The position numbers and the translations under genes are program-made. This document shows positions 24,320-57,374 of a stretch of DNA of 64,000 nt, one piece after another (position 1 is the stretch's first letter; every line of letters starts with the position of its first letter). Origin of the DNA: Prorocentrum cordatum (lineage: Eukaryota); the NCBI GenBank assembly GCA_963575745.1, contig CAUYUJ010000001.1:3038001-3102000 (forward strand), written 5' to 3'. The notes beneath the pieces are model-generated. The model did no database searches. It was given only the letters and a program-made list of their open reading frames with translations, and was not told the origin of the DNA.

Positions 24320-24640
24320 CATCATCATCACTCATTCTTCACTCATTCACTCATCATCCCCCCCCACACACTCACTCACTCACTCACTCACTCATACACT
24401 CACTCACTCACTCACTCACTCACTCAGTCACTCACTGATTCATCATCATTCACATATGAGGATGATGATGCTGCTGCTGATGATGATGATGATGATGATG
24501 CTGATGATGATGATGAGCGTGCGCGTGAGAGAGTGTGATGATGATGATGATAATCATCATCATCATCATCATCATCATCACCAGTCAGTCAGTCAGTCAG
24601 TCAGTCACTCACTCACTCACTCACTCACTCACTCACTCGC
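24320..24640. repeat. Compound microsatellites (CACT)n, (GAT)n, (CAT)n, (CAGT)n
   Basis: Direct reading. Confidence 0.9.
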
Positions 24641-24654
24641 CTTGGGCCTCGTCT

Positions 24655-25270
24655 GTGAGTGAATCGCGAGGAAGTCTCAACGGGAACCCCCTCCGTATGT
24701 GGCCCGCGGATCATGTTACTAATCCGAGCGGGTCATCCAATTTCTGTAAGCGTCGCCACTTTTGGGCTCTCGCGCTGCCAGAACGCCACTCCCAGGCCAC
24801 ATTTGTAAACGAATTGCGAGGAAGTCTCAACCGGGAACCCCCTCCCTATGGGGCCCGCGGATCATGCTACTAATCCGAGCGGGTCATCCAATTCTTGTAA
24901 ATGTCGTCACTTTTGGGCTTTCGCGCTGCCAGAACGCCATTCCCAGGCCACATTTGTGAGTGAATTGCGAGGAATTCTCAAGCGGGAGCCCCCTCCCTAT
25001 GGGGCCCGCGGATCATGTTACTAATCCGAGCGGGTCATCCAATTCCTGTAAATGTCGCCACTTTTGGGCTCTCGCGCTGCCACAACGCCATTCCCAGGCC
25101 ACATTTTGAATGCCCGGAGCCAACTGTAGGCCACTTCGTGTTCTTCGTGCTCCCAGGACACCATTCCCGGGCCACATGTTGAATGCCCGGAGCCAATTGT
25201 AGGCCACTTCGTGTTTTTCTTGTTCCCAGAGCACCACTCCCGGGCCACTTTCTGAATGTCCAGAGCCAAC
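24655..25270. repeat. Three ~151-bp units followed by 73-bp units
   Basis: GAAT(C/T)GCGAGGAA at 24661, 24811 and 24962. Each unit ends in TCCCAGGCCACATTT, shared with the 73-bp repeat. Confidence 0.9.
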
Positions 25271-25587
25271 ATAGGAGGGCGAGGTCGGGGACAATGTAGG
25301 GAGCGGGGGGAGGGCCCGCGCCAGGGCGAAAAGAAATATACGCAGAAGAGACAGCCAGGACGTTTCACCAACCACGAGGACGAGGGCTTTTTCCAGATTC
25401 GCCCAGAGGATTCTCATGTGGGGTCTTTCCGTCGGAGTAATTCCCAACCATCCTGTGGTGTTGGGTCCTCGTTTTGAAGAGACGGTGCCGCGCGTCTCTC
25501 CTTCCTTCCTTCATCCTCCCCCTCCTCCTTCCCCTCCTCCCTCCTCCCCCTCCTTGCTTCTGCTCTCGGCACACCTCTCACACGCTT

Positions 25588-27465
25588 CGTAGCCCCATAG
25601 GGAACTCCACCAAAGGCCCCAGTGGGGCGGTCCCCCCACTCAGGGCAGCGTTGCGTGGCCCCATAGGGAGCTCCGCCGAAGGCCCCACTGGGGGTGTTCG
25701 CATGCGGTTCCCCCACCCAGGGCAGCGTGTCGTGGCCCCGTACGGGGGCTCCACCGAAGGCCCCAGTTGGGGTGTTCGCATGTGGGTCCCCCGCCCAGGA
25801 CAGCGTTTCGTGGCCCCAAAAGGGAGCTCCACCGAGGGCCCCAGTGGGGGGTGTTCGCATGCGGGTCTCCCACCCAGGACTGTTTTTCGTGGCCCCATAG
25901 GGAGCTCCACCACCCAAGGCCCCAGTGGGGGTGTTCGCATGCGGGTCCCCCACCCAGGACAGCGTTTCGTGGCCCCATAGGGAGCTCCACCGAGGGCTCC
26001 AGTGGGGGTGTTCGCGAGCGGTTCCTTGAGTTATCCCACCCAGGGCAGCGTTTCGTGGCCCCATAAGGGGGCTCCACCGAAGGCCCCACAGGGGGTGTTC
26101 GTATGCGGGTCCCCCACCCAGGGCAGCGTTTCGTGGCCCCATAGGGAACTCTCCACCGAAGGCCCCAGCCGCTGCTCTCGCATGCGGGTCCCCCACCCAG
26201 GACAGCGTTTCGTGGCCCCATAGGGAGCTCCACCGAAGGCCCCACTGGGGGTGTTCGCATGCGGTTCCCACCCAGGACTGTTTTTCGTGGCCCCATAGGG
26301 AGCTCCACCGAAGGCCCCAGTGGGGGTGTTCGCATGCGGTTCCCCCACCCAGGGCAGCGCTTCGTGGCCCCAAGGGGAGCTCCACCGAAGGCCACAGTGG
26401 GGGTGTTCGCATGCGGCTTTCTTAGACTGGATAGCGTTTCGTGGCCCCATATGGAACTCCACCGAAGGCCCCAGTGGCTGCTCTCGCATGCGGTTCCACC
26501 ACCCAGGGCAGCGTTTCGTGGCCCCATAGGGAGCTCCACCGAGGGCCCCAGTGGCTGCTCTCGCATGCGGTTCCCCCACCCAGGGCAGCGTTTCGTGGCC
26601 CTATAGGGTGCTCCACCGAAGACCCCAGTGGCTGCTATGGCATGCGATTCCCCCACCCAGGGCAGCGTTTCGTGGCCCCATAGGGAACTCCACCGAAGGC
26701 CCCAGTGGCTGCTCTCGCATGCGGTTCCCACACCGAGGGCAGCGTTTCGTGGCCCCATAGGGATCTCCACCGAAGGCTCCAGTGGCTGCTCTCGCATGCG
26801 GTTCCCCCACCCAGGGCAGCGCTTCGTGGCCCCATAGGGAGCTCCACCGAAGGCCCCAGTGGCTGCTCTCGCATGCGGTTCCCGTACCCAGGGCAACGTT
26901 GCGTGGCCCCACAGGGAACTCCACCGAAAGCCCCAATGGCTGCTCTCGCATGCGGTTCCCCCACCCAGGGCAGCGTTTCGTGGCCCCATAGGGAGCTCCA
27001 CCGACGGCCCCAATGGCGCAGTTCGCATGCGGTTCCCGTACCCAGGGCAGCGTTCCGTGGCCCCGTGGGGAGTTCCACCGAAGGCCCCAATGGCGCAGTT
27101 CGCATGCGGTTCCCCTACCCAGGGCAGCGTTCCGTGGCCCCGTGGGGAAGTCCACCGAAGGCCCCAGTGGCGCAGTTCGCATGCGGTTCCCCCACCCACG
27201 GCAGAGTTTCGTGGCCCCATAAGGAGCTCTGCCGATGGCCCCAGTATGGGGGGGGGGTCGCATGCGATTCCTTCCTTCAGGGCAGCGCTTCGTGGCCCTA
27301 TAGAGAGCTCCACCGAAGGCCCCAGTGGGGGTGTTCGCATGCGGTTCCCCCGTTCAGGGCAACGTTTCGTGGCCCCATAGGGAGCTCCACCGAAGGCCCC
27401 AGTGGCGCAGTTCGCATGCGGTTCCCGTACCCAGGGCAGCGTTTCGTGGCCCCATAGGGAACCCC
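25588..27465. repeat. 77-bp satellite array 2, about 24 copies
   Basis: Same unit as array 1, with blocks of variant subtypes. Confidence 0.97.
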
Positions 27466-27631
27466 ATCGAAAACGGCACCCACAACGCGTTACGAACAAT
27501 TGCTTATGGTTGGGTTTTTTCGCCAGGATATTTTTTCCTGGCGTTCTGCTTCATTGTAGCTTCACAGCAAATCCCGTCCGTGAGCTTGGCTAGAACCGAA
27601 GTGCGCGCGAAACGCGCGCATGGTTCTAGTA

Positions 27632-34698: not shown

Positions 34699-35161
34699 AA
34701 CTGCCCATCAGCCGAGGCGAGCCGGCGGCCAGGATTCCCTGAGTGGCATTTCAGGAAATTCTGAGAAACGGCCCCCATAATATATACTCCGCAGCGTTGC
34801 GAAAAAAAACAGTTGGTGCTTTGCTGCCCACGGTTGTCGAGGGCCAAGAAAACAAGGACTTCGCAACACCAAGGATCGAGGGATACAAAGCAACATAAGA
34901 CATACATTGACGGAGGTCCGTTCGGATTTTTCGAACCGGCCCTGGGTCAACCACTCTGGCGCGCGAGGCGCGCCAAGGGTGGCAACGGAAGCGCCGCCAG
35001 CAAAGTCCCAAACCGATTTCAGATATCCGCGCGGACCTCCGAAAGTGTTTGTTTATGTTTGTATTCATCTTCTCAAGGTTCTGTGTAACGGGCAGTGCGA
35101 TGCAGGAGCGGCTGAAACGGTTGCAGCCGCGGCCTCGGATGGACCCTGAGATTGTATCTCC

Positions 35162-42996: not shown

Positions 42997-43606
42997 GGAA
43001 GACGCTCCAAGAGGGGCCCGCGACGCCCACAGGGCGCTCCAAGACGCACAGGCCGCTCCGAGACGCACAAGATGGCCCCCAAGACACCCCGAGAGGCCTC
43101 CCAGACGCCCCGAGAAGCTCCCACCCAGGAGGGCGCCAAGAGGCAAAATTCGCTCCATTCCCTGAGGGAAGCGTTTGCTTTTCGCATATGTACCTCTTTG
43201 GTTTTCACAGCATCCAAGACGGCCCAAGAGGCCTCCAAGACTGCCCCGCAGGCCCACGGGCTCCCAAGGGGCTCCAAGACGACCCGAGAGGGTCCCAAGA
43301 CGGCCCGAGAGGCCCCCGAGACCGCCCAAGAGAGCCCGAGGACATGCTCCAGAGGGGTCCCATAGGTGGACAACCATATTCACATTCCGAGCTTTCGGCC
43401 CCGGAGGCTCCCAGGAGGCCCCAAGAGTTCCCCAGGAGGCCCCAAGAGGCTCCCAAGATGCCCCAATATGCCCCCAAGAGACCCCCAGGAGGCTCTCAAG
43501 AGGCTTCCAGGAGGCCCCCCCGGAGGATCCCAAGAGGTTCCCAAACTGCCTCGAAGACGCCGTTGAGAGTCCGATATATGAAAGAGCGTGTTCTACCGCT
43601 GCTGGC

Positions 43607-44290
43607 GGAAAACCGGGGGGGTCACTACCGGTTCCGACCCCCCCCCCTCTGGAAAACCGGAGGGGGTGTCGCTACCCGTTCGAACTCCTCCCCCCCCCCT
43701 CCCAGTTCATCATGAAAAGGGGGGGGGGGGGGTCGCTGCCGGTTCGAACCCCCCCCCCTCGAGCTCGAAAACCGGGGGGGGTCACTGCCGGTTCGACCCC
43801 CCCCCCCCCCCTCGAAAACCGAGGGGGGGTGCGGGCAGTGGTGGGGGCGGTGGTGGTGGGGACAGTGGTGAGGGGACAGCGGGACAGTGGTGGGGACAGT
43901 GGGACAGTGGTGGGGACGGTAGTGGTGGGGACAATGGTGAGGACAATGGTGGGAACAGTGGGGACAGTGGGACAGTGGTGGGGACGGTGGTGGTGGGGAC
44001 AGTGGTGTGGGGACAGTGGGAATGTGGTGGAAACAGTAGGACAGTGGAGGGTACAGTGGTGGTGGGGACAGTGGTGAAGGCGGTGGCGAGGACGGCGGTG
44101 GGACAATGGGACAGAGGTACAGTGGGGACAGTGGTAGGGACAGTGGGGACAGTGGTGGGAACAGTGGGACAGCTCAGTGGTTCGAACCGGTAGTGACCCC
44201 CCCCTCCGGTTTTCGAGGGGGGGGGGGGGTTCGAACCGGTAGTGGCCCCCCCGGTCTTCGAGTTCGAGGGGGGGTGGGGGGGTGGGGGGG
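43607..44290. mobile_element. Foldback/MITE-like element with modular inverted arms and a GGGACAGTGGT minisatellite core
   Basis: GAAAACCGG(G)nTCACT(A/G)CCGGTTCG units at 43607-43830 are inverted at 44179-44270; core at 43835-44175. Confidence 0.75.
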
Positions 44291-45273
44291 GGGGGGGGGG
44301 GTACCGGGGGAAGGGAAAGGGGGGGGGGGTCCAGCAGAGGGGGGGGGGATTTTCGGAGGAAGGGGGGGGGCGTTAGCAAACTCATCCGTTACTATGTTGT
44401 TGGCTTGCAGCTTGGCAATGTATCCTGCCCGAAGGCCAACGATGTGATCAATTACTATTTTGTTGCGGCGCTCTGTGTGCCAATTGAGCTACAGACGACA
44501 CATGTAGAACATATGGAATGTAAGGACGAAGGGCCCTTGGAAGTCGCAGCCCCAGGGGGGTGTCCTGAGAGGCCGATCAACGAAAAAGGCGAAGGAGAAG
44601 CTCCAAAGACAAGGGCGCAAGGGTACCATCGAGAGAACTAATCGTCCTTAGTAAGACACTCGATTGCAATAGCGTGTGTCAGGCCGTCGCTATCAGGCGT
44701 CGCTTCCCCTTGGAGATTTCCCATGTGAGCCGCCTGTGATTGATTAAAAACCCACGTACCTTTGATGTTCACTTGACGTCGACACCGTGTTGACACACGA
44801 GCAAGTGCCGTCAACGGCGCCAAAACATACCAGACATGGTAAACAACACCTATGGCGGTTTAGTGGATCAGGCGGCTCAAACGGAAACAACTCAAAGAAA
44901 AGTTTGGCAAACGAGCCCAGGCCAATTGCAAGCGGCAGGTTAGGATTTCGGGGGCGGGACGAAAGGTTTTCCCAATAGAGTCTGCGAGCGGAACGAACCA
45001 GTCCAAACGAGTCCTGCCCTGGCGCGCGTCGAACGCACCGTGCACACAACAAAAAAGCGATCATGCAGCTGACCCTGCTGCCGCGCGCTGGAAGCGGCCG
45101 CAGAGTCTGCAGCGGCCGCACGAAGCATCCCGAGCAAGGCCTGCCCACGAGCGCATCGCGCAAACTCTGCAGGCGCAAGCGACGAAGATGACCCCACAAC
45201 GGCGGTTGTCTCGTGGCCGCGACCATGACAGCCAGGCAACGGGCTCCCCATCGCGCCTGGGCCGACAATCAGA

Positions 45274-48200
45274 TCACGCACCGCCGTGAGCCGCCTCGGA
45301 GACGACCGCGTCGCCCTCATTCCAGCGGCCTGCCATCGACGGCTCCTGCGTATCAGGCGGCCCACCGCCTGGCTCGCAGCCGAATTGCTCCTCCTGTGCG
45401 ATTAACTGCCCGCTGCCCTCGGGCGCGCCGCTGGCTGCCGCGGCGCCGAGCATCCCGCCGCCTTGTCCGTGTCCGCGCTGCTCCTCCTGGGCGCAGGGCG
45501 GCCCGCCGCCCTGGTGCGCGCCGCTGGCCGCCGCGGACGCGTCGATATCCAACAGCTTCTCCATATCCTGGGTCAGGTGGCACACCTTCGCCTTCTTCTG
45601 GGCCGTCTCAGCCTCGTCCTCATCGCTCGAGCGGCTGCGTTTCGACGCAGCCGCGAACGCCTTGATCGTCTCGCCACCCGCTGCCTTCAAGGCGATGCGG
45701 ACACCGTGCGTCTCCCAGACGTGGCCGGCCACCGAGTCGAACAGTCCCGCGATGTCGGGCATTGAAGGCATGGCCACGTACATGCCGTCGAACACCAAGC
45801 TCAAGACGCACGCTTGCAGCCCCTTGGCAGCAGCAGCCATGCTCTCGAGAATCTCGTCTTCCTTCGTCTGAAGGTACAGCGCCAGCGCCGAGGACCCTGG
45901 ATGCGCCTTCTGCAACACCTTCTCCATGGATGCAGCCTTGCGGTTCCTGGAAGTCCTCGCGTCGCTAGCGGCCCGTGCCGCCGCGGCGGGGCTCGCCGCG
46001 GGGAAGCAGCGAAACCTGAAGCCACGCGCGGTCGGGCAAGCCAGCGGCAACGTCGAATTCCAAGACCTCGCCTTCTTGTAATTGTCACACTCGGCCGCGA
46101 GGGTCTCCTGGCCACGCCTGAAAGCGCTCCTCAACTCCATCAGGCACGGCAGCATGTCGTCGGAGCGATCGCCTTCCCAGGATGCATCAGGCTGAATGCT
46201 GCCCTTGAACGGCAGCCGCGAGAAGATCGCCTTGGCCTGGGGCACGTCGATGTTATAGTACTGGGCAACGTCGGAGCGCCACTCTTTGGATTTGTCCGCG
46301 TACATCTTGACGATCCCAAAGTCACGCTCAATGGCGCCATCCGGAACGTGTGGCCGCAGCGCCTGCAGGAGTATCTGGTAGAACGCCGCAATCATGTCGA
46401 ATTCGCCCACGGCGAGGCCCTCGAACGCGACGACTCGCGTCTCTCGGGTGCAAGACTGAAGCCCTGGGCCTGACTCGTGCGCGCGGCCGATCTCGTCGAG
46501 CTGGTAATACTCGCGCCGAAGGACGCGGATGTCTGGGCACCCTGGCTCGGAGGTCGGGCGGAGAAAGCCGTCCTTCATGGTGCAGGCCTGGCCCGCCTCG
46601 TTCAGGAGATCCACGTGCGCGGACAACCCCTCCTGGCGACGCTCGCCCGTGACGGCAGCCCCAGCGTCGCGCCGGGCCCGCAGCGCGGTCAAGTTGGCTG
46701 CCTCGCAGACGGTGTAGCGGCACATTCGGGTCGGCACTTCAGCTTCGGCGGGCTTGGCGAGCGCGTCCTCGGCGGGGGCGAAAGCGTCGAGGGACAGGTT
46801 GTACGTGTACTCCGCGAGGTCGCCGAACGTGGCGGTGTCCGAGAAAAACTGGTTGTACAGCGACGTGTCGAAGGGGAGTGCGGTCACGCACGCCTGCATT
46901 CTCTGCTTGCGTGACTTCGCGGCCCCGATCTGGGCGAGATTGGCCCCGAGGCGACCTTGCGCGCGGACGTGGCCCAGGAGGACAGCCCACCGCTTCGTCT
47001 TGGGGGCGGCTAGTGGCAGATCGCACCTGGTCTGATCCACCTGGCACTGCAGGAGGGCGCGGGTCCTTGACGCGTAGAGGCGAGCGTGGATGTCCTGGAC
47101 GAGCGCGAATGACTCCCCGTTCACCTCGCCCTCGTGAGCGCCGTCGCCGTCCACCCTGCTCCACTCGGTCATCCACGCCTCGAGCCAGTGCGCCGTCGTC
47201 TTCGTCCCTGTCGCCGCCAGCTCGTGCAGTGAGAGGCCTCCGCCCGAAGACGCAGATGACCTGATGGTGAGGAGGTTGAGCAAGTGGCCAATCGCGAACT
47301 CGGGCCTGCCGATCTCTGCCTCGAGCCCGTGGTCCTTAAGGAAAGAACGCGGCGACGTGGGGGCGTCGAAGGAGTCGCGAAACTTATTCGGCATATACAT
47401 CGGCAGCAGGCGGTCGCGCTCCGAGCCCTTGGGGACCTGCTCCCACGATGGGATATCGTTGCACGCGAAAATGTAAGTGCACATGGGCTTCATCTTCTCG
47501 GTTTCGCCTGAGTTGCAAGCGCGGGCGGTGATGGGATCGGTAGAGTTCCTGCTCTTGAAGACAGCGTTGCTCCAAGCCGCGGAATGCACCTCGTTGCCGA
47601 AGGCTACGCGAAATCCTCGACGAAAGGCGTCCGCCGCCTTGTGCTCGTGCTCGGAGCGCTTGTCCGCAGTGAAGACTGTGGCTCGGACAGGAACGTAATA
47701 CTCCCCCCAGGCAGCCTGGAATATCTTTTCGCAGATGCCCTTGCCATTGCGGCCCCGCCTAGACCACAGCAGCGCGCACTTGCAGAGCGGCGTGCCTTCG
47801 AGAAGGCGCGCCTGCAGATGCATCATGTGCTGGAAGTTCTCCGCGTCTGCGTCCCCGAGCTCCTCCGCGCAATCGTCGGGGTGATGGTCGCCCTCGCGCT
47901 TATATAGCGACCGCAAGATCGACCATGACCTCTGGCGGTCGCTGGCCGACTCGGATTCCACGAGGTCGGAATTCTGCAGCCACCTGTTGCCGAACGCGAC
48001 TACCCTGCACCAGTGCCTTGAAACACGCGTTCGCCTTCTCTGTTTCACACAATTATTCCCCGTTTGAACCGCCCGAACCTGTCGAAAACCCATTGTCTTT
48101 TATACATTTCCTAAACGCACCGTCGCGACGACAACGTCTACGGGCGCGCCAGCAAGGGCGCAACTTCATGAAACAATGCAAAAACCCATGGTTTTTCAAC

Positions 48201-48948
48201 GATACGGGCGGTTCAAACGGGAAAAACGCTGCGTTTACCCACACCCATCCGCGCATCGTCCCCCCTCTTCCTTTACGTTCACGGCCGCCCGCCTTTGAGG
48301 CACGCGAATCGGGCTGCGCAGGGAAGTCATGTCTGTCGGGCGGCCTGGACGGATGGTGTTCGAGCGGAGGTCCACCACGCAATTGCTGAGCTGAAAGAGG
48401 TACGGGTCCAAGTCGAACGCGGCCTCCCCGTCGAACAGCATGGCAGATTCTCTGATGTTCTTCTCCACGCCTTGCTGGCACTCCAGCGCCGCCGCCGCCT
48501 TGTCCAGAAACTGCTGCTTGGGGTGGGGGTTGCCATCCTCGCCATCCCCAAAGCATTTCTCTGCGCGACAGCGCCTGGCAACCTCCTGGACCACGGGAAG
48601 GAACCTCGCCTGGAAGATCGCCTTGACCCTCGTCAGCGATCGCTTGACAACGCGCCGCGTCTGGTCCCACACCCACCAGTCGTCATCGCGGCTGCAGTAC
48701 ATGATCGGGCATTGGTCCCTTTGGAAGAACAAGTAGGCGAGCTGCGCCTGCAACAGCTGCGACAAATTGTGGTAGTCTGGCAACTCCTTGTAATATACAT
48801 ACAGGAGGCTGGTCTTTGGGGCGTTTGCGTGCTGGGCAAGGAACTCGTCGAGGCGGCCAGTCAGGGACGCATTCGTCGTTCGGGCTGCGGCAGCCACGAT
48901 GCGACTCCACTCGGCCCGCGGCGGCTCCGGCGGCAACATCTGCGACAT
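45274..48948 (-). CDS. D5-like SF3 helicase with C-terminal TV-Pol-like (family A-related) polymerase; exons 48948-48293, 47983-46072, 45936-45274
   Basis: D5_N: DLDPYLFQLSNCVVDLRSNTIRPGRPTD. Helicase: Walker A RRGRNGKG, Walker B VAFGNE, motif C IFACND, RDRLL. Polymerase: IGRAH...LQSCTRETR..GEFDMIAAF (A), AKAIFSRLPFKG (B), LQTKE..LSLVFDG (C). Two predicted GC-AG introns; the first is required to keep the frame. Confidence 0.85.
47984..48292 (-). other. GC-AG intron containing a MITE-like inverted repeat
   Basis: CCCGTTTGAACCGCCCG (48059-48075) is inverted at 48205-48221; a sibling lies at 51173-51335. Confidence 0.7.
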
Positions 48949-48974
48949 GGCGGTGGCCTGGCAATGTATTTGGA

Positions 48975-49683
48975 TATTCGGGTATTCGGGTATTCGGGTA
49001 TTCGGATATTCGGGAATTCGGGTATTCGGGTATTCGGGTATTCGGGGATTCGAGTATTCGGGTATTCGGGTATTCGGGTATTCCGGGTTTCGGTATTCGG
49101 GTATTCGGGTATTCGGGTATTCGGGTATTCGGGTATTCGGGTATTCGGGTATTCGGGTATTCGGGATTCGGGTATTCGGGTATTCGGGTATTCGGGTATT
49201 CGGGTATTCGGGTATTCGGGTATTCGGGTATTCGGGTATTCGGGTATTTGCGCGTCCACTCCACCTCCTCCAATGTCCGACTGCCCGAATACCCGAATAC
49301 CCCCGAATACCCGAATACCCGAATACCTGAATACCCGAATACCCGAATACCCGAATACCCGATTACCCGAATACCCGAATACCCGAATACCCGAATGATA
49401 CCCGAATACCCGAATACCCGAGTATCCGAACACCCGAATACCCGAATACCCGAATACCCGATACCTGAATACCCGAATTCTCGAATACCCGAATACCCGA
49501 ATACCCGAATACCCGAACACCCGAATACCCGAATACCCGAATACCCGAATACCCGAATACCCGAATACCCGAATACCCGAATATCCGAATACCTGAATTC
49601 CCGAATACACGAATACACGATACCTGAATACCCGAATACCCGAATACCCGAATACCCGAATACCCGAATACCCGAATACCCGA
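48975..49683. repeat. Inverted 8-mer satellite pair (TATTCGGG)n / (CCCGAATA)n
   Basis: Orientation flips across a ~35-nt spacer at 49249-49282. Confidence 0.95.
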
Positions 49684-49789
49684 GGAAGGGGGATGGCAGG
49701 GAAGCGTCCGAACCTCCAAGCTCAGGCGTTGGCGATTGTCACGCCCGGGCCGTGGCGGGGCAGTGGTCCGCGCCCGCGAGGTAGGTTCT

Positions 49790-49811
49790 CTCGAGCCTTA
49801 AACCGCTGTGG
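49790..49811 (-). promoter_or_regulatory. Highly degenerate DinoSL relic upstream of the helicase-polymerase gene
   Basis: CCACAGCGGTTTAAGGCTCGAG. Confidence 0.4.
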
Positions 49812-49966
49812 CACGGCTCGGGCAGACAGCGGCGCTGCCGTCGCCCCGTTCCTTGTCTCGCCCTGCACGGCGGGGGGGGGGAGAGGGGGGGCGAGAAAAT
49901 TCAATGTTTCGCGATCGATTAATAGATAGCCGAATGGCAGTCTCGAGTCTCGACCCCGGCGTGCTT

Positions 49967-51044
49967 TCACTGGAGCACGCGCGGGCGCTTGTAGCCGAAG
50001 ACTGTGGACATCTTCACGTTCTGGCGGCTGGGCGCGTCGTTGATCCCCTCCCACGTGATCCCCTGGCACTGAGACAACGAGAGCTCCTCGCGCATGTGGC
50101 GCTTCACCTGCAGGAGACCGCAACGAACGGTGCCCCCTACCCCTCCCGCCCTGCCCCTTCCGACGACCGACCCCATTGGGCCCGCGTCGCCATCTGCACC
50201 GTCGACGACAGCTGCGCCGCGAGGCAGTCGACGAGGACAGCTCCGTCGTTCGCGTTGGAGATCATCAGGAAAACCTCATCGAGCTCGGGGATCGCGTCGG
50301 GCAGCTCGACATCCACGGCGATCGGGTCGACGCGCTGCGGGATCACGCGCGGGCGTTTGTAGCCGAAGACGGTTGAAATCTTCACGTGCTGGCGGCTGGG
50401 TGCATCGTTGATCCCCTCCCACGAGATCGCCTGGTACTCTGGCGCCGTCAGCTCCTGGCGCATCTGGCGCTTCACCTGCGGGAGAACGCAAGCGAAACCA
50501 GTGGCAGCCCGCGTGCCCAAATTCCCCAATGCCCGAATGCCAGGGTAACCGCGTGCCCGAATGCCCGAATACCCGAATGCCCGAACTCCCCATTCCCGAG
50601 GCTTGGGGTGCCAGGGAGCGGCCGAACCTCGAGGCTCGAGCGATGGCGATTACTGCCCCCCGTCGCCATCTGCACCGTCGACGACAGCGGCACCGCCAGG
50701 CAGTCGACGAGAACAGCTCTGGTGTTCGCATTAGAGATCTTCAAGAAGGCTTCATCGCGCTCGACGTCTGCGAAGAGCAGCTCGACGTCCACGGCGATCG
50801 CGTCGACGCACCGCGTGAGCACGCGCGGCATTCGGAAGTCCACTGGCAGCCGCGTCACGACGCCTGGGGCTGGCGGCAGCGCAGCGTTAAAGCGCCAGAA
50901 CTTCTTGTGGTAGCGCACCCCCAGGGTGATCCAGATCTCGCTCTCGCCCTCTGCGATGCGCATAGCCTGCTTCTTACCGAGGAGGCGCCACGCCGCTGCA
51001 TCGAAACCGGCATGATCTCCGCGGTCGACAAATGCGAACTCCAT
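49967..51044 (-). CDS. Protein with two tandem ubiquitin-like (beta-grasp-like) repeats; exons 51044-50667, 50475-50191, 50107-49967
   Basis: Duplicated unit VFLxISNAN..AVLVDCLA..LSSTVQM|VKRxMRxEL...IxWEGINDAPSRQxVKxSTVFGYKRPRV. Both GC-AG introns fall at the same codon. The Ubl call rests only on TVQMVKRQ resembling TIxxVKxK. Confidence 0.7.
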
Positions 51045-51101
51045 CGCTGGGGGGGCCGCTGCCTGCGAGGTAGAGGCTGAGGGTGGTGGTCTGTTCGAGC
51101 G

Positions 51102-51120
51102 CTTGAGCCGCGACGCCTGC
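51102..51120 (-). promoter_or_regulatory. Degenerate DinoSL relic
   Basis: GCAGGCGTCGCGGCTCAAG, about 58 nt upstream of ATG 51044. Confidence 0.45.
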
Positions 51121-51394
51121 TCTTGCCGCAGCACGTGCGCGGCAACGAAACTATCGTTTTCACACCACGATTTCCCGTTTGAGCCGTCCGAACCCTTCAA
51201 AAACATTTGCGTTTGGGTACATTTCCAAATCGCACGGTGGTCCGACGACGTCCGCGGAAACCAGAGAAAGACATCCACATTTCAAAAGTGCAAAAAAACC
51301 AATGGTTCTACCTAGTTTGGGCGCCTCAAACGGAGAAAACCCTGCTCTTTTTGACCGCCGAACTACCCCGACGCCAGGCGCTCCGCAACGCGAG

Positions 51395-53516
51395 CTATTC
51401 ACCCCGAAATCTAACCCGAGACCCTGCGCTCTGGCGCGAAGCGCTGACGTCCCCGCAATGCATCGATCGCGGCTGCCTCAGCGTCTCCTCGATGCGCCGC
51501 ATGATGGCCGCGCTGTCCTTCCTGGTCTTCGTCGTCGCCCTCTTCGCGCGCCTGAGCGGGAAGTTCGCCCTGCTGGAGACCCGGGTCTTGCCCCGCACGC
51601 GGCCCGCGAGCTTGATGGTCCCGCGGTCGGGGCGTCTGTGCAAGTCCATGTTCAGCTGCCTCTGCCACGCCTCGCAGCGGAGGGTCGCGCGGGCTGCCCG
51701 CTCCTCGGCCGCCGCCGCTGGCGCGCGCGCCCGAGGCGCGTGCGCTTCGCCCGATTCACCCTCTGCTCTGCCACCGCCGCCACGTCGTCGGAGGCCGTCG
51801 CCTCATCTTCGAGGGCCGCGCCCGCCGCGGCGACGCCCCGCCTGAGCGCGCCCGCGACTATGAGGCCAGAGAGGATGCATATGATCCGCCTGTCTGTCAG
51901 CTTCTGGAGCGAGGGGTCCCCGAGGTTCTTGTATGCGTTGGTGAGCATGCGGTGCAACCCGTGCACCTCCTGCACGACCTCGAGCCGCTCGAGGTGCTGC
52001 TGGTGCACGCACTGGGTCCAGCGCTTAAGGAGGCGATGTTCGGCCTCGTTGCCCAGGGTGCCGCTCGTGACGTGAACTCCCCCAGCCATGGCCCTGATCG
52101 GCGAATTTTTCATGAGATATCCGAAGTGGCCGCGCCGCGCCCCGCACTGGACCACGTGAAGCGCCGTGACCCCCTTGAGGTTCTTCCTCGCCATCTCGTC
52201 CGGGCATGTTTCCGCGATCCTTTTAAGCTCTGCGACATGCTCGGCGTGGGCCTGGAAAGGCTCCCCCATGAAATCTGCATCTTCCCTATCGCCCCGTGGC
52301 CCAGCTGCCGCTACGTCGCCCCAGATGTCCGCGCCGCCGCTGCTGCCGTGGTAGAGGTCGCCGGCGGTCGGCGCACCAGGGGCCGCGATCAGGAACTTCT
52401 TCTGGATCGCCATGATCGCACGAGAGCTGGAATTTCGCTTCTGCCCAAAGCAATGCTCCACGCGGAAGACCAGGTGCATGGCGTCCTCGGCACAGGCGAG
52501 GCCGTTGGGCAGAGCCTCCAGGAATCCCTCGCTGGGCGAGTCGGTGAAGAGGAATCGCACCTGGCCGATCATCTCGTCCGTAAACCGGTGGCGCAGTGCC
52601 GCCTTGAACGACTCGATCCCCTCCTTCGGCTGGAGGCTGAAGCCTGGGCAAGCGCCCGTGATGCCGATGAACGTGCGAGCAGTGTGGCGCTCGCCGTCGC
52701 GCTGCGCCATGCGCGCCTGCCCGATGATGGAGAAGGTCATCTTGAAAGTCGCGTCGTGCGCTATCGCCACCCACTCGCCCCGCTCTGTCGCGGCAGCTTG
52801 CAGGCGGCGGAGCGCATGCTGGACAACGCCGCCAGGGTTCTTGAACATGACAATCACGCGCTCCTTCACCGTCACCTGCATCGTCGGAAACAATAGCGGC
52901 GCGCCCTCTGCGTCCTCGGCCCACCTGGCTAGCATCTCGTCCACCATGGCGCCGACGTGGCCCCTGCATCGGAGCGCAAGGCTAATGGCGGCGTCTTCGA
53001 AGTCGCGGGAGTAGTAGACCTTTTCTGTCGCGCGGGTTGCGTCGGCCGTCCTGCACTTTAACCAGTACTCGGGGCCAGGCCGCGTAGGACCATGATGATG
53101 GGGACCTGGTTGTTACGTTTCAGCACCTCCAACTCGGCGGGCGGAGCACCTCGGTTCCATCCCCGAATCATGGCAGCGCTCTTCTCTAGGAGATCATCGG
53201 CGGCGCTGCCTGGCCAGCATGTGCTCTGGGCCAGACGATGGCGGTGCAACGCCTTCGCGACGTTGAGCTGCGGGTAAGTCTTGGTGCGGAGGCCGTGCGC
53301 CGCTGCTGTGAAGAATGGAGCCGTGTGGTACTTCATGTGCTCTACCAGCTGCGCCCTGCGCTTGAAGGATCGGAATGGGCACAACTTGCACGTCTGCTCG
53401 ACGACGCCGCCAGCGCCGCTGGCCGCTCGTTCACGCAAGGCGTCGTTGTAATTGCCCACCTCGGCGGCCAGCGAGGCCGCGAAGGGTCCAGCGGCGTCGT
53501 CGCCGACGCCCGCCAT
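51395..53516 (-). pseudogene. Mutator/MULE-like DDE transposase with N-terminal C2H2 zinc finger, two apparent frameshifts (~53085, ~51720)
   Basis: CKLC..HMKYH finger; IAHDATFK (D1), FLFTDSP (D2), AEDAMH ((C/D)xxH), SGTLGNEAEHRLLK (E). Confidence 0.75.
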
Positions 53517-53680
53517 CCGCGGAGCAGCCCGCGGCGAGGCCGCCGAAGTCTCGAGCCAGCGGGCTGCGCGAAACGCGAAGACGGCAATTGGGGGAGCATT
53601 GCGAGAGACGGAACTGCAGGAGAACAGCTCGGGCACGCGGGAGGAGTCGACGACGACTGAGAGGTTTTTGGAAATTACAA

Positions 53681-53727
53681 TTTGAGCCAACGCATTAGAA
53701 TAACCTGAGCCATGAGCCCCGCTGTGG
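53681..53727 (-). promoter_or_regulatory. Two partial DinoSL relics
   Basis: CCACAGCGGGGCTCATGGCTCAGG and TTGGCTCAAA upstream of the transposase. Confidence 0.45.
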
Positions 53728-53949
53728 GAAAGGTAACATTTAGTAACTAACCGTTGTGCCGCTTGCAATTGGCGTTGCGTGCGTTTGCCGCCCCCGCCCC
53801 GCCCCGCCCCGCCCTCTGCCCGACCCGACCGTCGTTTCTCTCTCTGCCGCGAGCGCCCCCTCGCTCCGGCTTCTAGGTCGCCTGCCGGTGCGCCAGAACC
53901 ACGCCGACCGCCTGGAAGGCGTCTGGTGGCTTCGGCCTCAAGCGCAAGC

Positions 53950-55437
53950 CTAAGTGCCCGTTGGGGAGAGAGAGAGCAGCCTGTCCTGGCGCCTCAGCTG
54001 CGCCCTCACCGCCCTGTCGCCAGTAGTCCTGAGGCGGCCCTTCTCGTTGTCAGCCCTGTTCTCCCACCGCCTGAGTTCGCAGCAGAGGTCCTCGAGGTGT
54101 GAGATTGTGAAGTCTCCCACCCACAAGCTCGGGTCTACCAGCCTCGGCTTCACCAGCTGGAGCAGGGCTCGGAGGCGCTTCGAGTTGTCGGGGTCGTGCG
54201 CGGTGCAACGGCGGAGCATGGGAGGAGGAAGACAACGCAGGTCGGGTCTCTTGCCCCCTCCCCCCCCGCCCGCCCACCCACCACCACCACCACCACCGCA
54301 ACCACGCCCACCCACCCACCCACCCACCCGCCAACCCACCCACCCACCCACCCACCCACCCACACCCACACCCACACCCACACCCACACCCACACCCACA
54401 CCCACATACACGCACACACACAGACACACACACAGACGCGCACGCACCCCATGCCAACTTGGCTTCTCCAGTTGCCGAAAGGGGAAGGAACGCCAAGTGA
54501 GCCGACCTGCATTGATTTCCTCCTCCCCGAGGACCGCCTCTGCGCCCTCCCCCACAAAGTCGTTCTCCGCTAGGGTGAACCCGTTGGCAGCCTTCGGGCG
54601 GACAACAGCCAAGTCGCGAGACATCAGCATCCTGTGCCACTCGGTGTGCACGAGAAGCGTCTTCTCGAGCACGACGCCGAGCGGCTGCCCCTTCTCCAGC
54701 TGCCGCGCCGCCGTCGTGAAGCGGCTCTTGCGCATGAGCTCGGCGACGTACTTGGCCATCGCCTGCTTCTGCTGGTGCGCCCCTCTCTGGCCCGCTTGGC
54801 GCGCGTGCTCCGCGTTCCAGAAGGTTCTCTGGTACCCCGCGTAGGCCTGCCTGATGGTGGTGTCGTCAACCACCGAGGCGAAAGCGCTCTCGTCGAAGCA
54901 CCTGCCCTCCGCGAAGGCTTGCCCCGAGCGCTCCTCGTAAGTCGCCAGTGCCTTCTGTAGCAAGCCCTCCCCGTTGAACCAAACCCTGGTGAGCAGGATT
55001 CTCTGGAGCACCGAAGGAAGGGGCACTTTTCTGGAGTCGTGCAGCACCGTGCGGAGCTCCAGGTCGGTGGAGTTGAGCTCGTGCGAAGCCTCGCCGCCGC
55101 GGTGTGTCAGCCACTCGGGGTGGACGAGGAAGGACGTGACCAAAGGGTTCTGCGCCAACCTCGAAAAGAGTTTCTCGGCCACGCTGCGCCCGTGCAGCTT
55201 TTCGATTGAACTCACCGCCCTGGCGTTTGCGAAGGCGACCAAGCTGTCCACCTCGTCGTCACGCGCGCGCGCGCCGCGCCGGAGCCCTCCGACCTGACGC
55301 TCGGCAGCGCCTTCCCTCCGCTGTCCACCATGATGCCGACAGAGGGGCAACCCGTCCTGCCCTACGCAGTTGGTACGGTGGTACCCTGTGGGGCCCGCTG
55401 CCCCTCGGGCTGGGCACGGCAACCAAGTCGGCGGCAT
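53950..55437 (-). CDS. aGPT-Pplase / amino acid:DNA transferase-like (5hmU hypermodification, HhH-glycosylase-like fold) protein with N-terminal C...CxxHGG finger; intron from 54506 to ~54250/54210
   Basis: ILLTRVWFN (cf. lfRxFN), MLMSRDL...FVGEGAEAVL (cf. Dl...GpGA..gl) and HLEDLCCELRRW (cf. iEhxLCExxKy) occur in the expected order. The intron acceptor is unresolved. Confidence 0.65.
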   Translation of the reverse strand: MPPTWLPCPARGAAGPTGYHRTNCVGQDGLPLCRHHGGQRREGAAERQVGGLRRGARARDDEVDSLVAFANARAVSSIEKLHGRSVAEKLFSRLAQNPLVTSFLVHPEWLTHRGGEASHELNSTDLELRTVLHDSRKVPLPSVLQRILLTRVWFNGEGLLQKALATYEERSGQAFAEGRCFDESAFASVVDDTTIRQAYAGYQRTFWNAEHARQAGQRGAHQQKQAMAKYVAELMRKSRFTTAARQLEKGQPLGVVLEKTLLVHTEWHRMLMSRDLAVVRPKAANGFTLAENDFVGEGAEAVLGEEEINAGRLTWRSFPFRQLEKPSWHGVRARLCVCLCVCVYVGVGVGVGVGVGVGVGGWVGGWVGWRVGGWVGGRGCGGGGGGGWAGGGGGGKRPDLRCLPPPMLRRCTAHDPDNSKRLRALLQLVKPRLVDPSLWVGDFTISHLEDLCCELRRWENRADNEKGRLRTTGDRAVRAQLRRQDRLLSLSPTGT

Positions 55438-55447
55438 GTCCAACTAC

Positions 55448-55469
55448 CTGGAGCCCAATCGGCTACGGA
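55448..55469 (-). promoter_or_regulatory. DinoSL relic
   Basis: TCCGTAGCCGATTGGGCTCCAG (18/22 match), 10 nt upstream of ATG 55437. Confidence 0.85.
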
Positions 55470-57374
55470 AGAGGAGGCGCGGAGGATGAACAAGGGAAGC
55501 GATTGAACAATAGGATGGAGTGCGCGAAATAAAACGAAGATCGCGAGACAAGAAGCGGATAATAATCAGGAGGGAAGGTCGAAGAGCAGGAGGGGAATAA
55601 TGAGAGTAAACAGGAGGACAGGGGAGGATCAGAGGGATTGGAATACCAATAGCCAGTAGTTAATCGGAAGGTTGTCATCAATACTTACTTCCACCAGCTT
55701 CCGCGCAAGTTTCGACGACGCCTGCAAGAAGAGGAATGCGACGATGTTCGAACTACCACCAGCTGTGAGCTACCACTCCGCGCGGCCGATGCCACAGGAG
55801 AGACGGAGGGTGGAGGTGGGGAGGGCTGCAATTAAAACGGCCCCCTCCTGTGTGACACGGAACGCAGAAAAAGAAGAACAAACATAATGGTAATGGATCC
55901 GAAGCATCACGGGGGGGGGGGACCCCCGGGTTCTGGAGGAAAAGGGCGGCAATTTTCCACAATGAAGCGGCGGTGGATCACGCTCTATATATATATATAT
56001 ACAATATAGACACACACGCCTGACCCACCACCTAGGGCACCCGCCGCCCGCCCGCCGTCCGCGTAGCACGCACCACTCTGTACTCAACAGCTTCAGTCTC
56101 CAAGACAACACCTTGTAGTCAACAGCCCCCGTCTTCAAGGCAACACCCTGTGCTCAACAAGCCCCCGCCGAGGGCCCCAAATATTGCCAAGACAGCCCCA
56201 AGAGGCCCCGGACACGCCGAATATGTCTTCAGGACGGCCGACGGCGCCGCCAAAACGCTCCAAGAGCGCTTTCAGAGGCCCCTCCAAATTGCCCCACATT
56301 TTTGCGCTCTCGCATGTTCCGCCTCCCCACGGTCCCGGACGGCGTCAGAGGCCCTTCAGATCGCTCCAAGACGGCCGAAGAGGCTCCCAAGAAAGACCAG
56401 AGGTCTCAGGAGGCTCCCCAGATAATTCTTTACGCTTCGCGTATCCCCACCAGCCCATCTCAAAACAGCAACTCTTGCGAAGCATGCCGACAGTCGTGTT
56501 TTTCAGGCGTGTTTCCGCCTGCCCCCGCATATCTCCCCTGTTCCTCCTTCGTCCAGCCTCCTTGTACATCCTCCTTGTGGTGGGAGCGGGAGAAGGACGA
56601 GGCGGAGGAGGAGGGAGAGAAAGCGCTCCTCGTGGTTTGAGTCGTTCGGGGTTTCTCGTCCTGGTGTGAGTCGTTCGGGCCCTTCTTCCTGGTGTGAGTC
56701 GTTCGGGCTCTTCGTGGTGTGAGTCGTTCGGGCTCTTCGTCCTGGTGTGAGTCGTTCGGGCTTCTCGTGGTGTGAGTTGTTCGGGCCCCTCGTCCTGGTG
56801 TGAGTCGTTCGGGCCCCTCCTCCTGGTGTGACTCGTTCGGGCTCCTCGTGGTGTGAGTCGTTCGGGGCCCTCGTCGTGGTGTGAGTCGTTCGGGCTCCTC
56901 GTGGTGTGAGTCGTTCGGGCGCCTCGTCCTGGTGTGAGTCGTTCGGGCCCCTCCTTCTGGTGTGAGTCGTTCGGGCTCTTCGTGGTGTGAGTCGTTCGGG
57001 CCCCTCGTCCTGGTGTGAGTCGTTCGGGCTCCTCGTGGCGTGAGGCGTTCGGGCACCTCGTCCCCTTTTGGGGCGTCTTGGGGGCCTCTTGGCGGCCCCA
57101 GGGGCTTCTAGGAGCGTCTTGGGTGCCTTGGGGGAGCCTCTTCGGGCCTCTTGGGAGCCTCTTGGAGGCCGTTTGGGGCGTCTTGGGGGCCTCTTGGCGG
57201 CCCCAGGGGCTTCCAGGAGCGTCTTGGGTGCCTCGGGGGAGCCTCTTGGGGCCTCTTGGGGACCTCTTGGGGGCATCTTGGGGGCCTCTTGGAGGCCTCT
57301 TGGGGGCCTCCTGGGGGCCTCTTGGGGCCATCTTGGGGCCTCTTGGTGCCTCCTGGGCGCTTCCTGGGGCCATC

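What the first reader, a model, noticed from the sequence alone, without database searches (positions are those of the whole stretch)
44906..53789. Candidate self-replicating DNA transposon: Mutator-like transposase plus D5 helicase-TVpol between inverted repeats
Seen: three co-oriented genes (MULE-like DDE transposase with C2H2 finger, Ubl-repeat protein, SF3 helicase-polymerase) bracketed by a perfect 17-bp inverted repeat inside a ~40-bp imperfect one. Established: Polintons pair protein-primed PolB with a retroviral-like integrase, casposons pair PolB with Cas1, and TV-Pol/D5 fusions occur in virophages, Polinton-like viruses and phage-related elements. Inference: a Mutator-type transposase with its own helicase-polymerase and no visible capsid would be a distinct self-synthesizing element class that I do not know to be described. 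This copy's transposase is frameshifted and I see no TSD.
Basis: partly seen in the sequence, partly recalled or inferred. Interest (0 to 1): 0.92.

Follow-up and report, generated by a model that had tools for sequence, protein, structure and literature searches.

The report
Transposase plus helicase-polymerase element, dinoflagellate
A dinoflagellate locus pairs a transposase-like gene with a helicase fused to a small DNA polymerase between short inverted repeats, and the same two protein families occur fused in one reading frame elsewhere, so this may be a capsid-less mobile element that copies its own DNA, although its mobility is not shown.

Summary
The sequence facts hold. A perfect 17-bp inverted repeat inside a ~40-bp imperfect one brackets 44906-53789, and the genes inside all lie on the minus strand. 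The 3' gene is a D5_N + SF3 helicase + family-A (TV-Pol-type) polymerase. Pfam and PHROG hits support the helicase part. A confident AlphaFold model supports the polymerase: Pol theta Z 14.5, and a virophage replication protein is the top viral hit. The 5' gene belongs to an unnamed family with a C2H2 finger and invariant D, D, D-x2-H and E. It looks like a DDE transposase, but no profile or fold search confirms that, and "Mutator" is not established. It carries two frame breaks. The Ubl label for the middle gene is unconfirmed. There is no target-site duplication.

New evidence: in two other, divergent proteins the TV-Pol domain and this transposase family sit in one ORF, joined by a shared Cys/His linker domain. 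The pairing is therefore conserved, not a chance adjacency.

Mobility and the inverted repeats as element ends remain unproven. No second locus could be fetched. No capsid or packaging gene was seen in the Pfam scans. Bacterial TV-Pol elements with transposases are already described, so I read this as a new eukaryotic variant of a known kind.

The parts
44906..44943 (+). Left inverted-repeat arm. Perfect 17-mer at 44921-44937. Lies about 340 bp downstream of the polymerase gene's stop.
53747..53789 (-). Right inverted-repeat arm. Perfect 17-mer at 53757-53773. Lies about 240 bp upstream of the transposase-like gene's ATG. A (GGGGC)n run abuts it on the outside.
51395..53516 (-). C2H2-finger plus DDE-like (D, D, D-x2-H, E) transposase-like gene. 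Relatives are about 650 aa. It is broken by a 1-nt frame change near 53085 and a second near 51690.
51160..51340 (-). Palindromic MITE/introner-like element, copy B, just after the transposase-like gene.
49722..51278 (-). Three to four repeated coding-like units of about 120 aa, 83-86% identical at the DNA level, interrupted by an 8-mer satellite at 50508-50600.
48950..49700 (.). 8-bp satellite (CGAATACC-type) in two inverted blocks. Arms reach 195 nt at 91% complementarity. Lies directly upstream of the D5 gene's start.
48292..48948 (-). Exon 1 of the replication gene: D5_N domain.
48007..48291 (-). GC-AG intron of 285 nt. It holds palindromic element copy A (48050-48228).
45274..48006 (-). 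Exon 2. SF3 helicase core at about 47374-47805. Family-A (TV-Pol-type) polymerase at about 45574-46896. Low-complexity tail.
44710..44893 (-). Palindromic element copy C, 13-18 bp outside the left repeat arm.
53950..55443 (-). Upstream ORF of unknown function on the same strand, split by a (GT)n/(GGGT)n microsatellite. It lies outside the right repeat, but a diverged second copy exists in run X1. Whether it belongs to the unit is open.

Best explanation
The locus is an old, partly decayed copy of a capsid-less 'replication plus integration' module in a Prorocentrum cordatum-like dinoflagellate genome.

It encodes two things:
- a C2H2-finger protein with an RNase-H-like DDE core, taken to be the transposase or integrase;
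- a D5_N-SF3 helicase fused to a minimal family-A (TV-Pol-type) polymerase, taken to be the replicase.

Shown:
- the identity of the helicase and polymerase domains;
- conservation of the polymerase's acidic catalytic residues;
- the conserved pairing of the two protein families, which are fused in one ORF in other sources;
- the inverted repeat that brackets both genes here.

Inferred:
- the DDE protein cuts and joins at the repeats;
- the helicase-polymerase primes and copies the excised, possibly circular, copy, or fills in a copy-out/paste-in intermediate.

A circular intermediate would also reconcile the reversed gene order between the window and the fused forms.

My odds: the linkage is functional, about 0.8. 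It is or was a mobile element, about 0.55. The 40-bp repeats are its ends, about 0.35.
For: Helicase:
- D5_N, E 5.7e-10.
- The helicase core matches phrog_1156 at 2.7e-13. The two ORFs hit consecutive profile parts, 360-514 and 549-691.

Polymerase:
- AlphaFold model pLDDT 85.4, pTM 0.82.
- Foldseek against PDB gives 74 matches at E<=0.001. All 50 rows shown are family-A DNA polymerases.
- VIA-align gives Pol theta Z 14.5 (283 aligned, rmsd 4.0) and Klenow Z 12.4. The top 7 are all family-A DNA polymerases.
- Against BFVD the top hit is the Zamilon virophage replication protein, E 1.6e-11.
- The motif A aspartate is invariant in 9 of 9 aligned sequences. The VFDG aspartate is invariant in 5 of 5.

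Transposase-like family:
- 12 relatives were found. D250, D321, E339, D340, H343 and E488 are invariant.
- The best Foldseek rows for the poor model are Hermes and ISCth4 transposases. These are not significant: E 0.27-0.37.

Linkage:
- P0069 (1443 aa) carries TV-Pol at 6-414 (2.4e-41), the C2H2 region at 806-864 (4e-5) and the DDE core at 1119-1361 (6e-25).
- P0108 (926 aa) begins with the last 39 residues of TV-Pol (6e-6) and continues into the transposase at 235-919.
- Their linkers are homologous. The same linker follows TV-Pol in P0038, P0053, P0062 and P0072.

Other:
- The inverted repeat is not chance.
- No Pfam domain of any capsid, packaging ATPase or other integrase appears in 23 + 72 ORFs.
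Against: - There is no target-site duplication.
- No second locus with this order could be examined. Scans of viral and metagenome contigs found no relatives.
- No transposase profile or fold match is significant, so the DDE reading rests on motifs.
- In the fused proteins the order is polymerase then transposase. Here it is transposase, repeats, then polymerase.
- In run X1 the bins holding the repeat arms have the lowest depth (1.3-3.5). The coding parts have 7-10. Paralogous contigs at 83-90% identity are seen only over coding sequence.
- The ORF outside the right repeat also has a diverged second contig (55182-55495). So conserved ends are not seen, and duplication may extend past the right repeat.
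- Copy number looks low, at 2-5 contigs per site.
- The replication gene has a spliceosomal-type intron and an annotated gene model, as a resident cellular gene would.
- The helicase Walker A reads G-K-G rather than G-K-S/T (sequence; consensus recalled).
Confidence: 0.5

Rival explanations
1. Resident or domesticated gene cluster. The helicase-polymerase and the DDE-like protein are cellular, formerly mobile genes kept by selection in a one-directional dinoflagellate gene array. The inverted repeat is a shared regulatory or structural motif and nothing moves now.
For: - Low copy number, and old paralogs at 83-90% identity visible only over coding sequence.
- Long intact reading frames in the polymerase gene.
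- An intron with an introner-like insertion and an annotated gene model.
- No target-site duplication.
- Standalone intact relatives of the DDE-like protein, about 650 aa, on short contigs that may be transcripts.
Against: - The transposase-like gene here is broken twice, which is unexpected for a gene under host selection.
- TV-Pol/SF3 replicases are otherwise known from viruses and mobile elements.
- At least four P. cordatum paralogs sit on different contigs.
- The inverted repeat exactly brackets the genes.
Confidence: 0.22
2. Fragment of an endogenous Polinton-like virus or virophage, of which only the replicase survives. It lies next to an unrelated DNA transposon, and the inverted repeat belongs to only one of the two or to neither.
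For: - PolA-SF3 fusions are typical replicases of virophages and Polinton-like viruses.
- A dinoflagellate-associated group of such viruses is reported.
- The best viral structural match is a virophage protein.
Against: - TV-Pol and the transposase family are fused in one ORF in two other sources.
- No capsid, A32-type ATPase, protease, rve integrase or tyrosine recombinase was found by Pfam in 95 ORFs across the window.
- No relative was found in 2.9 million IMG/VR contigs.
- The domain order is helicase then polymerase, the reverse of the virophage TVpol.
Confidence: 0.13
3. A real mobile element with different boundaries. The unit is larger and takes in the upstream ORF 53950-55443, or is bounded by other repeats. 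The 40-bp inverted repeat is internal, for example an origin or promoter element.
For: - A diverged second copy of 55182-55495 exists, and 2-3 contigs cover 54930-55206 in X1.
- There is no target-site duplication at the repeat.
- All three palindromic elements in the window sit at or next to this locus.
Against: - No other candidate terminal repeats were found. The only larger inverted pair, 43.2 kb against 57.2 kb, is a high-copy satellite.
- The upstream ORF has no recognisable domain.
Confidence: 0.15

Closest known systems
Bacterial TV-Pol mobile elements, including the SCCmec replication module (Iyer, Abhiman and Aravind 2008, PMC2579912; passages read)
   Same: A minimal family-A polymerase works with a D5-like helicase. 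It is linked to a recombinase, which in some cases is an RNase-H-fold transposase. These elements were proposed to be replicative transposons without capsids.
   Different: - Those are prokaryotic.
- Their transposases are IS630 or IS605 type, or they use resolvases or lambda-type integrases.
- No fusion of polymerase and transposase was described there.
- Here the host is a dinoflagellate, the DDE-like family is unnamed, and the helicase lies N-terminal to the polymerase.
TVpol-SF3 helicase replicases of virophages and Polinton-like viruses (Sputnik V13, Zamilon; PMC3671162 and two 2026 bioRxiv preprints, passages read)
   Same: The same two enzymatic domains sit in one protein. The closest structural match among viral proteins is Zamilon, E 1.6e-11.
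   Different: - In the viruses the polymerase is N-terminal and the helicase C-terminal. Here the order is D5_N, helicase, polymerase.
- The viruses carry capsid and packaging genes. According to the 2026 preprint they pair PolA replicases mostly with tyrosine recombinases. None of these is seen here.
Polintons/Mavericks and casposons (self-synthesizing transposons)
   Same: The concept is shared: an element that carries its own DNA polymerase and its own integrase between terminal inverted repeats.
   Different: - They use protein-primed family-B polymerases with an rve integrase or Cas1.
- Polintons have capsid genes.
- They make target-site duplications, which are absent here.
hAT / MULE / IS256-type DDE transposases (Hermes, ISCth4)
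   Same: - The residue pattern matches: D on a first strand, D after a fourth strand, a D-x2-H motif shortly after, and a distant E.
- Hermes and ISCth4 are the top, non-significant Foldseek rows.
   Different: - No profile match.
- No WRKY/GCM1, BED or SWIM finger, and no hAT dimerisation domain was detected.
- No 8-11 bp target-site duplication.
- The repeat is short.
Transpovirons (as described in the 2026 preprint, section 13 read)
   Same: A replication-integration module without a morphogenetic module.
   Different: As described there, they carry a pPolB and a DDE transposase and are associated with giant viruses. They have no family-A polymerase.

Membership tests
TV-Pol (minimal family-A polymerase of mobile elements and viruses) | Family-A palm and fingers fold without an exonuclease domain | tested here: met
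   Model pLDDT 85.4. Pol theta Z 14.5 and Klenow Z 12.4, aligned to the polymerase domains only. Foldseek gives 74 hits at E<=0.001, and all rows shown are family A.
TV-Pol (minimal family-A polymerase of mobile elements and viruses) | Two conserved acidic catalytic residues (motifs A and C) | tested here: met
   D167 is invariant in 9 of 9 sequences. D370 in VFDG is invariant in 5 of 5. Both are present in the window copy.
TV-Pol (minimal family-A polymerase of mobile elements and viruses) | Closest relatives are TV-Pol proteins rather than cellular Pol I | tested here: inconclusive
   The top BFVD hits are virophage and giant-virus replication proteins. No TV-Pol profile exists in Pfam to test against, and no tree was built.
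D5-like SF3 helicase | D5_N domain followed by an SF3 ATPase core | tested here: met
   Pfam D5_N at 40.1 bits against a cut-off of 22.4. phrog_1156 at 2.7e-13 over the ATPase core.
D5-like SF3 helicase | Canonical Walker A G-K-S/T | tested here: not met
   The window and its relatives P0002 and P0011 read G-R-N-G-K-G. The consensus is recalled, not tested. ATPase activity is therefore uncertain.
Mutator/MULE superfamily | Match to MULE, Transposase_mut or IS256 profiles | tested here: not met
   No such Pfam hit in the window ORFs or in 12 of 12 family members at E<=10. NCBIfam gives none.
Mutator/MULE superfamily | 8-11 bp target-site duplication and long terminal inverted repeats | tested here: not met
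   No direct repeat flanks either definition of the ends. The repeat is only about 40 bp.
DDE (RNase-H-like) transposases in general | Invariant D, D, E on an RNase H-like fold | tested here: inconclusive
   Invariant D250, D321 and E488, plus D340-x2-H343. The model is poor, pLDDT 47. Hermes and ISCth4 are the top rows but E is 0.27-0.37. VIA-align gives nothing.
Polinton-like virus / virophage provirus | Double-jelly-roll capsid, penton, A32-type ATPase and protease near the replicase | tested here: inconclusive
   No Pfam hit in 23 ORFs of 200 aa or more across the window, or in 72 ORFs of 150 aa or more in the flanks. Capsids of these viruses are often invisible to Pfam.
Self-synthesizing transposon (as a kind) | Several copies with the same gene order whose homology ends at the terminal repeats | not testable with these tools
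   No whole genome is held. No related loci were found in the collections. Run X1 gives only short contigs.
Ubiquitin-like repeat protein | Beta-grasp fold or a ubiquitin-family profile match | tested here: inconclusive
   No Pfam hit at E<=0.1. No PDB sequence hit to a ubiquitin-like chain. The units are split by frame changes or introns, so whole units were never tested.

The most novel reading that the evidence does not exclude
A previously undescribed eukaryotic family of capsid-less replicative transposons. An SF3 helicase, a TV-Pol-type primase-polymerase and a non-rve DDE transposase form one module. In some lineages they form a single polyprotein joined by a Cys/His protease-like linker. 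The element would excise, perhaps as a circle joined at its inverted repeats, copy itself with its own replicase, and reinsert. It would be a eukaryotic counterpart of the bacterial TV-Pol elements and a third kind of self-synthesizing transposon beside Polintons and casposons.
Probability: 0.4. Interest if true: 0.85.

Novelty: new variant of a known kind. Interest (0 to 1): 0.72.

Why it matters
Two classes of self-synthesizing transposons are well known: Polintons, now seen as viruses, and casposons. Both use family-B polymerases.

A eukaryotic element that joins a family-A primase-polymerase and helicase to a cut-and-paste-type transposase, sometimes in one protein, would show that the replicase modules of small DNA viruses can live as transposons without capsids. 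A 2026 preprint raises this possibility only from indirect evidence.

It would bear on how virophages and Polinton-like viruses arose. Iyer et al. proposed a TV-Pol transposon ancestor for Sputnik.

It would also offer a mechanism for gene and repeat expansion in the very large dinoflagellate genomes. A polymerase-transposase fusion would be a new enzyme architecture worth biochemical study.

Tried and rejected
- **Whole genome.** Not held. The scan's earlier findings held nothing by place or by sequence.
- **Related loci.**
  - The transposase alignments found nothing in viral contigs or metagenome contigs.
  - The TV-Pol alignment A5 found nothing in metagenome contigs or viral contigs.
  - P0069, P0098 and P0108 found nothing in viral contigs.
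  - Alignments A1 and A4 were too divergent for the tool.
- **Lookups unavailable.** The protein atlas could not read P0007 or P0009. The organisms and contigs behind P0002-P0113 therefore stay unknown.
- **Sequencing runs.** One holder, X1, with 0.23 of the sampled words. No RNA holder is listed.
- **Joint 44363 to 55913 in one X1 contig.** It lies between two poly-G runs with 24 letters on the short side. I reject it as an empty site.
- **Joint 48079 to 48281 in X1.** The contig has about 200 unaligned letters between the two sides, so it does not show a copy lacking the palindromic element.
- **Transposase structure.** The model is poor and VIA-align gives only helical look-alikes. PDB sequence search with the profile finds only zinc fingers.
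- **P0087 and P0098.** Their C-termini show by-eye DDE-like motifs. hhalign against the transposase alignment gives nothing, and Pfam and PHROGs give nothing. This is a lead only.
- **Relics inside the window.** No relic of TV-Pol upstream of the transposase, of the transposase downstream of TV-Pol, or of the linker domain anywhere.
- **Spliced-leader relic.** Only one match, at 6983-7003, far from the locus.
- **Other copies in the window.** None.
- **Inverted pair 43.2 kb against 57.2 kb.** This is a high-copy satellite, not terminal repeats.
- **Literature.** Searches for a described eukaryotic TV-Pol plus non-rve DDE transposase element listed none. The library holds open-licence papers and bioRxiv only. 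No supplements were read.

Full report
**Origin and layout**

The window is GC-rich (about 0.6) eukaryotic DNA. Its long minus-strand ORF is 94% identical over full length to an NCBI protein of Prorocentrum cordatum. Three further P. cordatum paralogs lie on other contigs. No whole genome is held.

On the minus strand, from high to low coordinates, the locus reads:
- right repeat arm (53789-53747)
- transposase-like gene (53516-51395)
- palindromic element B (51340-51160)
- repeated coding-like units (51278-49722)
- an inverted 8-mer satellite (49700-48950)
- D5_N exon (48948-48292)
- a 285-nt GC-AG intron holding palindromic element A
- helicase-polymerase exon (48006-45274)
- left repeat arm (44943-44906)
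- palindromic element C (44893-44710)

**The inverted repeat**

- The 17-mer occurs exactly twice in the window at up to 2 mismatches, in inverted orientation. The chance expectation is 0.01, and 0 of 100 shuffles gave two matches.
- Read by hand, the similarity extends to about 40 bp: 8/8, about 3/7, 17/17, a 4-nt gap, 6/6.
- Perfect inverted repeats of 17 nt or more with arms 0.5-15 kb apart fall on 1243 diagonals. Only 3 are not low-complexity. The other two belong to dispersed repeats.
- No direct repeat flanks either definition of the ends. The right flank is a (GGGGC)n run, and the left flank is followed within 18 bp by palindromic element C.

**The replication gene**

- Pfam finds D5_N in the first exon: 5.7e-10, 40.1 bits against a cut-off of 22.4.
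- PHROG family 1156 ('DNA primase') matches the two ORFs at consecutive profile positions, 360-514 and 549-691.
- tblastn with the paralog P0005 joins the exons at residue 219.
- The last 700 residues have no Pfam family.
- A search of 1.84 billion representatives with residues covering 45574-46896 found 98 relatives at E<=0.001, 54 at <=1e-10 and 17 at <=1e-30. Of 19 scanned with Pfam, only one carried D5_N and one a weak zinc ribbon.
- An AlphaFold model built on 34 sequences has pLDDT 85.4 and pTM 0.82.
- Foldseek against the PDB gives 74 matches at E<=0.001. Every row shown is a family-A DNA polymerase: Pol theta, Klenow, Bst, Taq, Pol nu, T7.
- VIA-align against 48,161 representative chains gives Pol theta Z 14.5 (283 aligned, rmsd 4.0) and Klenow Z 12.4. 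The top seven are all family-A DNA polymerases, and 14 chains reach Z>=8.
- Against predicted viral structures, the best hit is the Zamilon virophage replication protein (1.6e-11). The Qinghai Lake virophage helicase/primase/polymerase and giant-virus proteins also rank in the top nine.
- The motif A aspartate is invariant in 9 of 9 aligned sequences. The VFDG aspartate is invariant in 5 of 5.
- The domain order is helicase then polymerase. This is the reverse of the virophage TVpol, where the polymerase is N-terminal (PMC3671162, passages; 2026 preprint, passages).

**The transposase-like gene**

- Homologs are about 650 aa, on short ENA, JGI or Logan contigs. Five were found at first and twelve with a profile. 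None carries a Pfam family.
- They begin with a C-x2-C...H-x3-H finger that is below Pfam's threshold. It scores in 3 of 12 members.
- They share invariant D250 (H-D-A-T-F-K), D321 (F-[ST]-D-x-P), E339-D340-x2-H343 and E488 (N-E-A-E-H).
- This is the pattern I recall for DDE transposases of the hAT/MULE/P group, which carry a C/D-x2-H motif. The comparison is recalled, not tested.
- The AlphaFold model is poor, at pLDDT 47.3.
- Its best Foldseek rows are Hermes (E 0.27) and ISCth4 (E 0.37) transposases. No match reaches 0.001, and VIA-align finds nothing useful.
- Pfam, NCBIfam and PDB sequence searches give no transposase.
- I therefore treat 'DDE transposase' as probable and 'Mutator' as not established.
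- The window copy changes frame near 53085. One diverged X1 contig has an extra A at 53087.
- It changes frame again near 51690, where the conserved tail continues in another frame (2e-7).

**The middle gene**

DNA repeats at 83-86% identity exist, and the ORFs show repeated 120-aa units. No tool supports a ubiquitin-like fold.

**Linkage beyond this window**

I built HMMs from the transposase alignment A3 and the polymerase alignment A5, then searched all 113 fetched proteins.

- 13 proteins matched the transposase model and 101 the polymerase model. Two matched both.
- P0069 (1443 aa) entered as a distant polymerase relative. It has TV-Pol at 6-414 (2.4e-41), the finger region at 806-864 (4e-5) and the DDE-like core at 1119-1361 (6e-25).
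- P0108 (926 aa, from a Logan assembly) entered as a transposase relative. It begins with the last 39 residues of the polymerase domain (6e-6) and runs on into the transposase at 235-919.
- P0108 is itself a row of A3, so its transposase match is by construction. The independent result is its match to the polymerase model.
- The stretches between the two domains are homologous to each other (7e-5).
- The same linker follows the polymerase in P0038, P0053, P0062 and P0072. It has a conserved N-C-I-x-W, a G-P-Y-x-Y and a G-H-C, which may mark a cysteine protease. This is by eye only.
- Nine polymerase-family proteins have 150 residues or more after the polymerase domain.
  - Three carry this linker and then end.
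  - Two carry the linker plus the transposase.
  - Two (P0087, P0098) carry another C-terminal region with by-eye DDE-like motifs that hhalign does not link to the family.
  - Two are unexplained.
- Caveat: these are predicted proteins whose contigs I could not see. A chimeric assembly is not excluded.

**What argues against a simple transposon reading**

- There is no target-site duplication.
- There is no other copy in the window.
- No relatives were found in IMG/VR or JGI metagenome contigs.
- In run X1, the coding parts of both genes carry summed depths of 7-10 and 2-5 contigs per variable site. The arms of the repeat lie in bins of depth 1.3-3.5.
- The contigs shown include near-identical ones (about 97-98%) and diverged ones (83-90%) over the polymerase gene, the transposase gene, and also the ORF outside the right repeat at 55182-55495.
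- So conserved termini are not seen, and duplication may reach beyond the right repeat.
- The gene order in the fused proteins is the reverse of the window. A circular intermediate or a lineage-specific rearrangement could reconcile this. That is inference.

**Surroundings**

Pfam finds nothing relevant in 23 ORFs of 200 aa or more across the window. It finds nothing at all in 72 ORFs of 150 aa or more at 30-44.7 kb and 53.9-64 kb. So no capsid, packaging ATPase, protease, rve integrase or tyrosine recombinase is visible. Capsids of such viruses often escape Pfam.

[quoted passage not shown] The first point explains why no transposase paralog appears among NCBI proteins. The second fits the palindromic element in the intron.

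**Comparison with what is known**

- Iyer et al. 2008 defined TV-Pol. They described bacterial neighbourhoods that link it with resolvases, lambda-type integrases or RNase-H-fold transposases of IS630/IS605 type, and proposed these as replicative transposons. They suggested Sputnik arose from such an element (PMC2579912, passages).
- A 2026 preprint reports that PolA replicases of small eukaryotic DNA viruses associate mainly with tyrosine recombinases, and pPolB with DDE transposases. It suggests that such replicases may move on their own (passages and section 13 read).
- My five literature searches listed no eukaryotic element that combines TV-Pol/SF3 with a non-rve DDE transposase. The library is limited to open-licence papers and bioRxiv.

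**Verdict**

- Transposition, the element's ends, and Mutator membership remain open.
- I rate it a new eukaryotic variant of a known kind, with interest 0.72.

Noticed in passing
44710-44893, 48050-48228, 51160-51340 (half-site at 35107-35120): Three homologous palindromic elements of about 175 bp. Their ends read TTTCCGTTTGAGCCGCC...GGCGGCTCAAACGGGAAA. Mean column identity is 73%. Copy A folds as a hairpin with z -5.8. All three lie in the same orientation, in or beside this locus: after the transposase-like gene, inside the D5 intron, and just outside the left repeat. They look like MITE or introner-type elements. Why all copies in the 64-kb window sit here is unexplained. The hexamer CGTTTG is shared with the outer ends of the 40-bp repeat, which may be chance.
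   Followed up: partly
48950-49700: An 8-bp satellite (CGAATACC-type) is arranged as two inverted blocks with arms up to 195 nt at 91% complementarity, directly upstream of the D5 gene's start. A short run of the same satellite lies inside the repeated-unit gene at 50508-50600. Run X3, a different organism code, holds this satellite.
   Followed up: no
Proteins P0069 644-729, P0108 84-171, P0038, P0053, P0062, P0072: A conserved domain follows the TV-Pol domain, with N-C-I-x-W, G-P-Y-x-Y and G-H-C motifs. It may be a papain-like cysteine protease that would cut a polymerase-transposase polyprotein. It has no Pfam family and is absent from the window.
   Followed up: partly
Proteins P0087 (about 1110-1225) and P0098: Distant TV-Pol proteins of 1251 and 1392 aa end in a region with by-eye DDE-like motifs (I-T-D, M-D-R-N-C, I-D-K-F-H-x-x-K-H, N-T-S-I-S-E-Q). 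They may carry a different transposase family. hhalign, Pfam and PHROGs give no support.
   Followed up: partly
47700-47760 (Walker A of the helicase): The P-loop reads G-R-N-G-K-G in the window and in P0002 and P0011, with Gly where Ser or Thr is usual (consensus recalled). The ATPase may be atypical or inactive.
   Followed up: no
about 45950-46070, within the polymerase domain: A stretch of about 40 aa is absent from more distant relatives and from the gene model P0004. It has pLDDT below 50 (model residues 277-318). It may be an in-frame retained intron or an insertion.
   Followed up: no
43500-44400: A G-rich satellite with an extremely high summed depth in run X1, up to 76,000. Related arrays lie at about 20 kb and, inverted, at about 57.1-57.4 kb in the window.
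   Followed up: no
22200-27550: Two blocks of about 2 kb, 83-85% identical, made of a tandem repeat with a period of about 77 bp. They account for several of the long ORFs in that region.
   Followed up: no
6983-7003 (-): The only near match in the window to the dinoflagellate spliced-leader sequence, with 2 mismatches. It may be a relic of a retroposed gene.
   Followed up: no
53950-55443 (-): An ORF of 497 codons with non-repetitive, protein-like stretches on both sides of a (GT)n/(GGGT)n microsatellite. It has no Pfam, PHROG or PDB match. A diverged second copy is present in run X1.
   Followed up: partly
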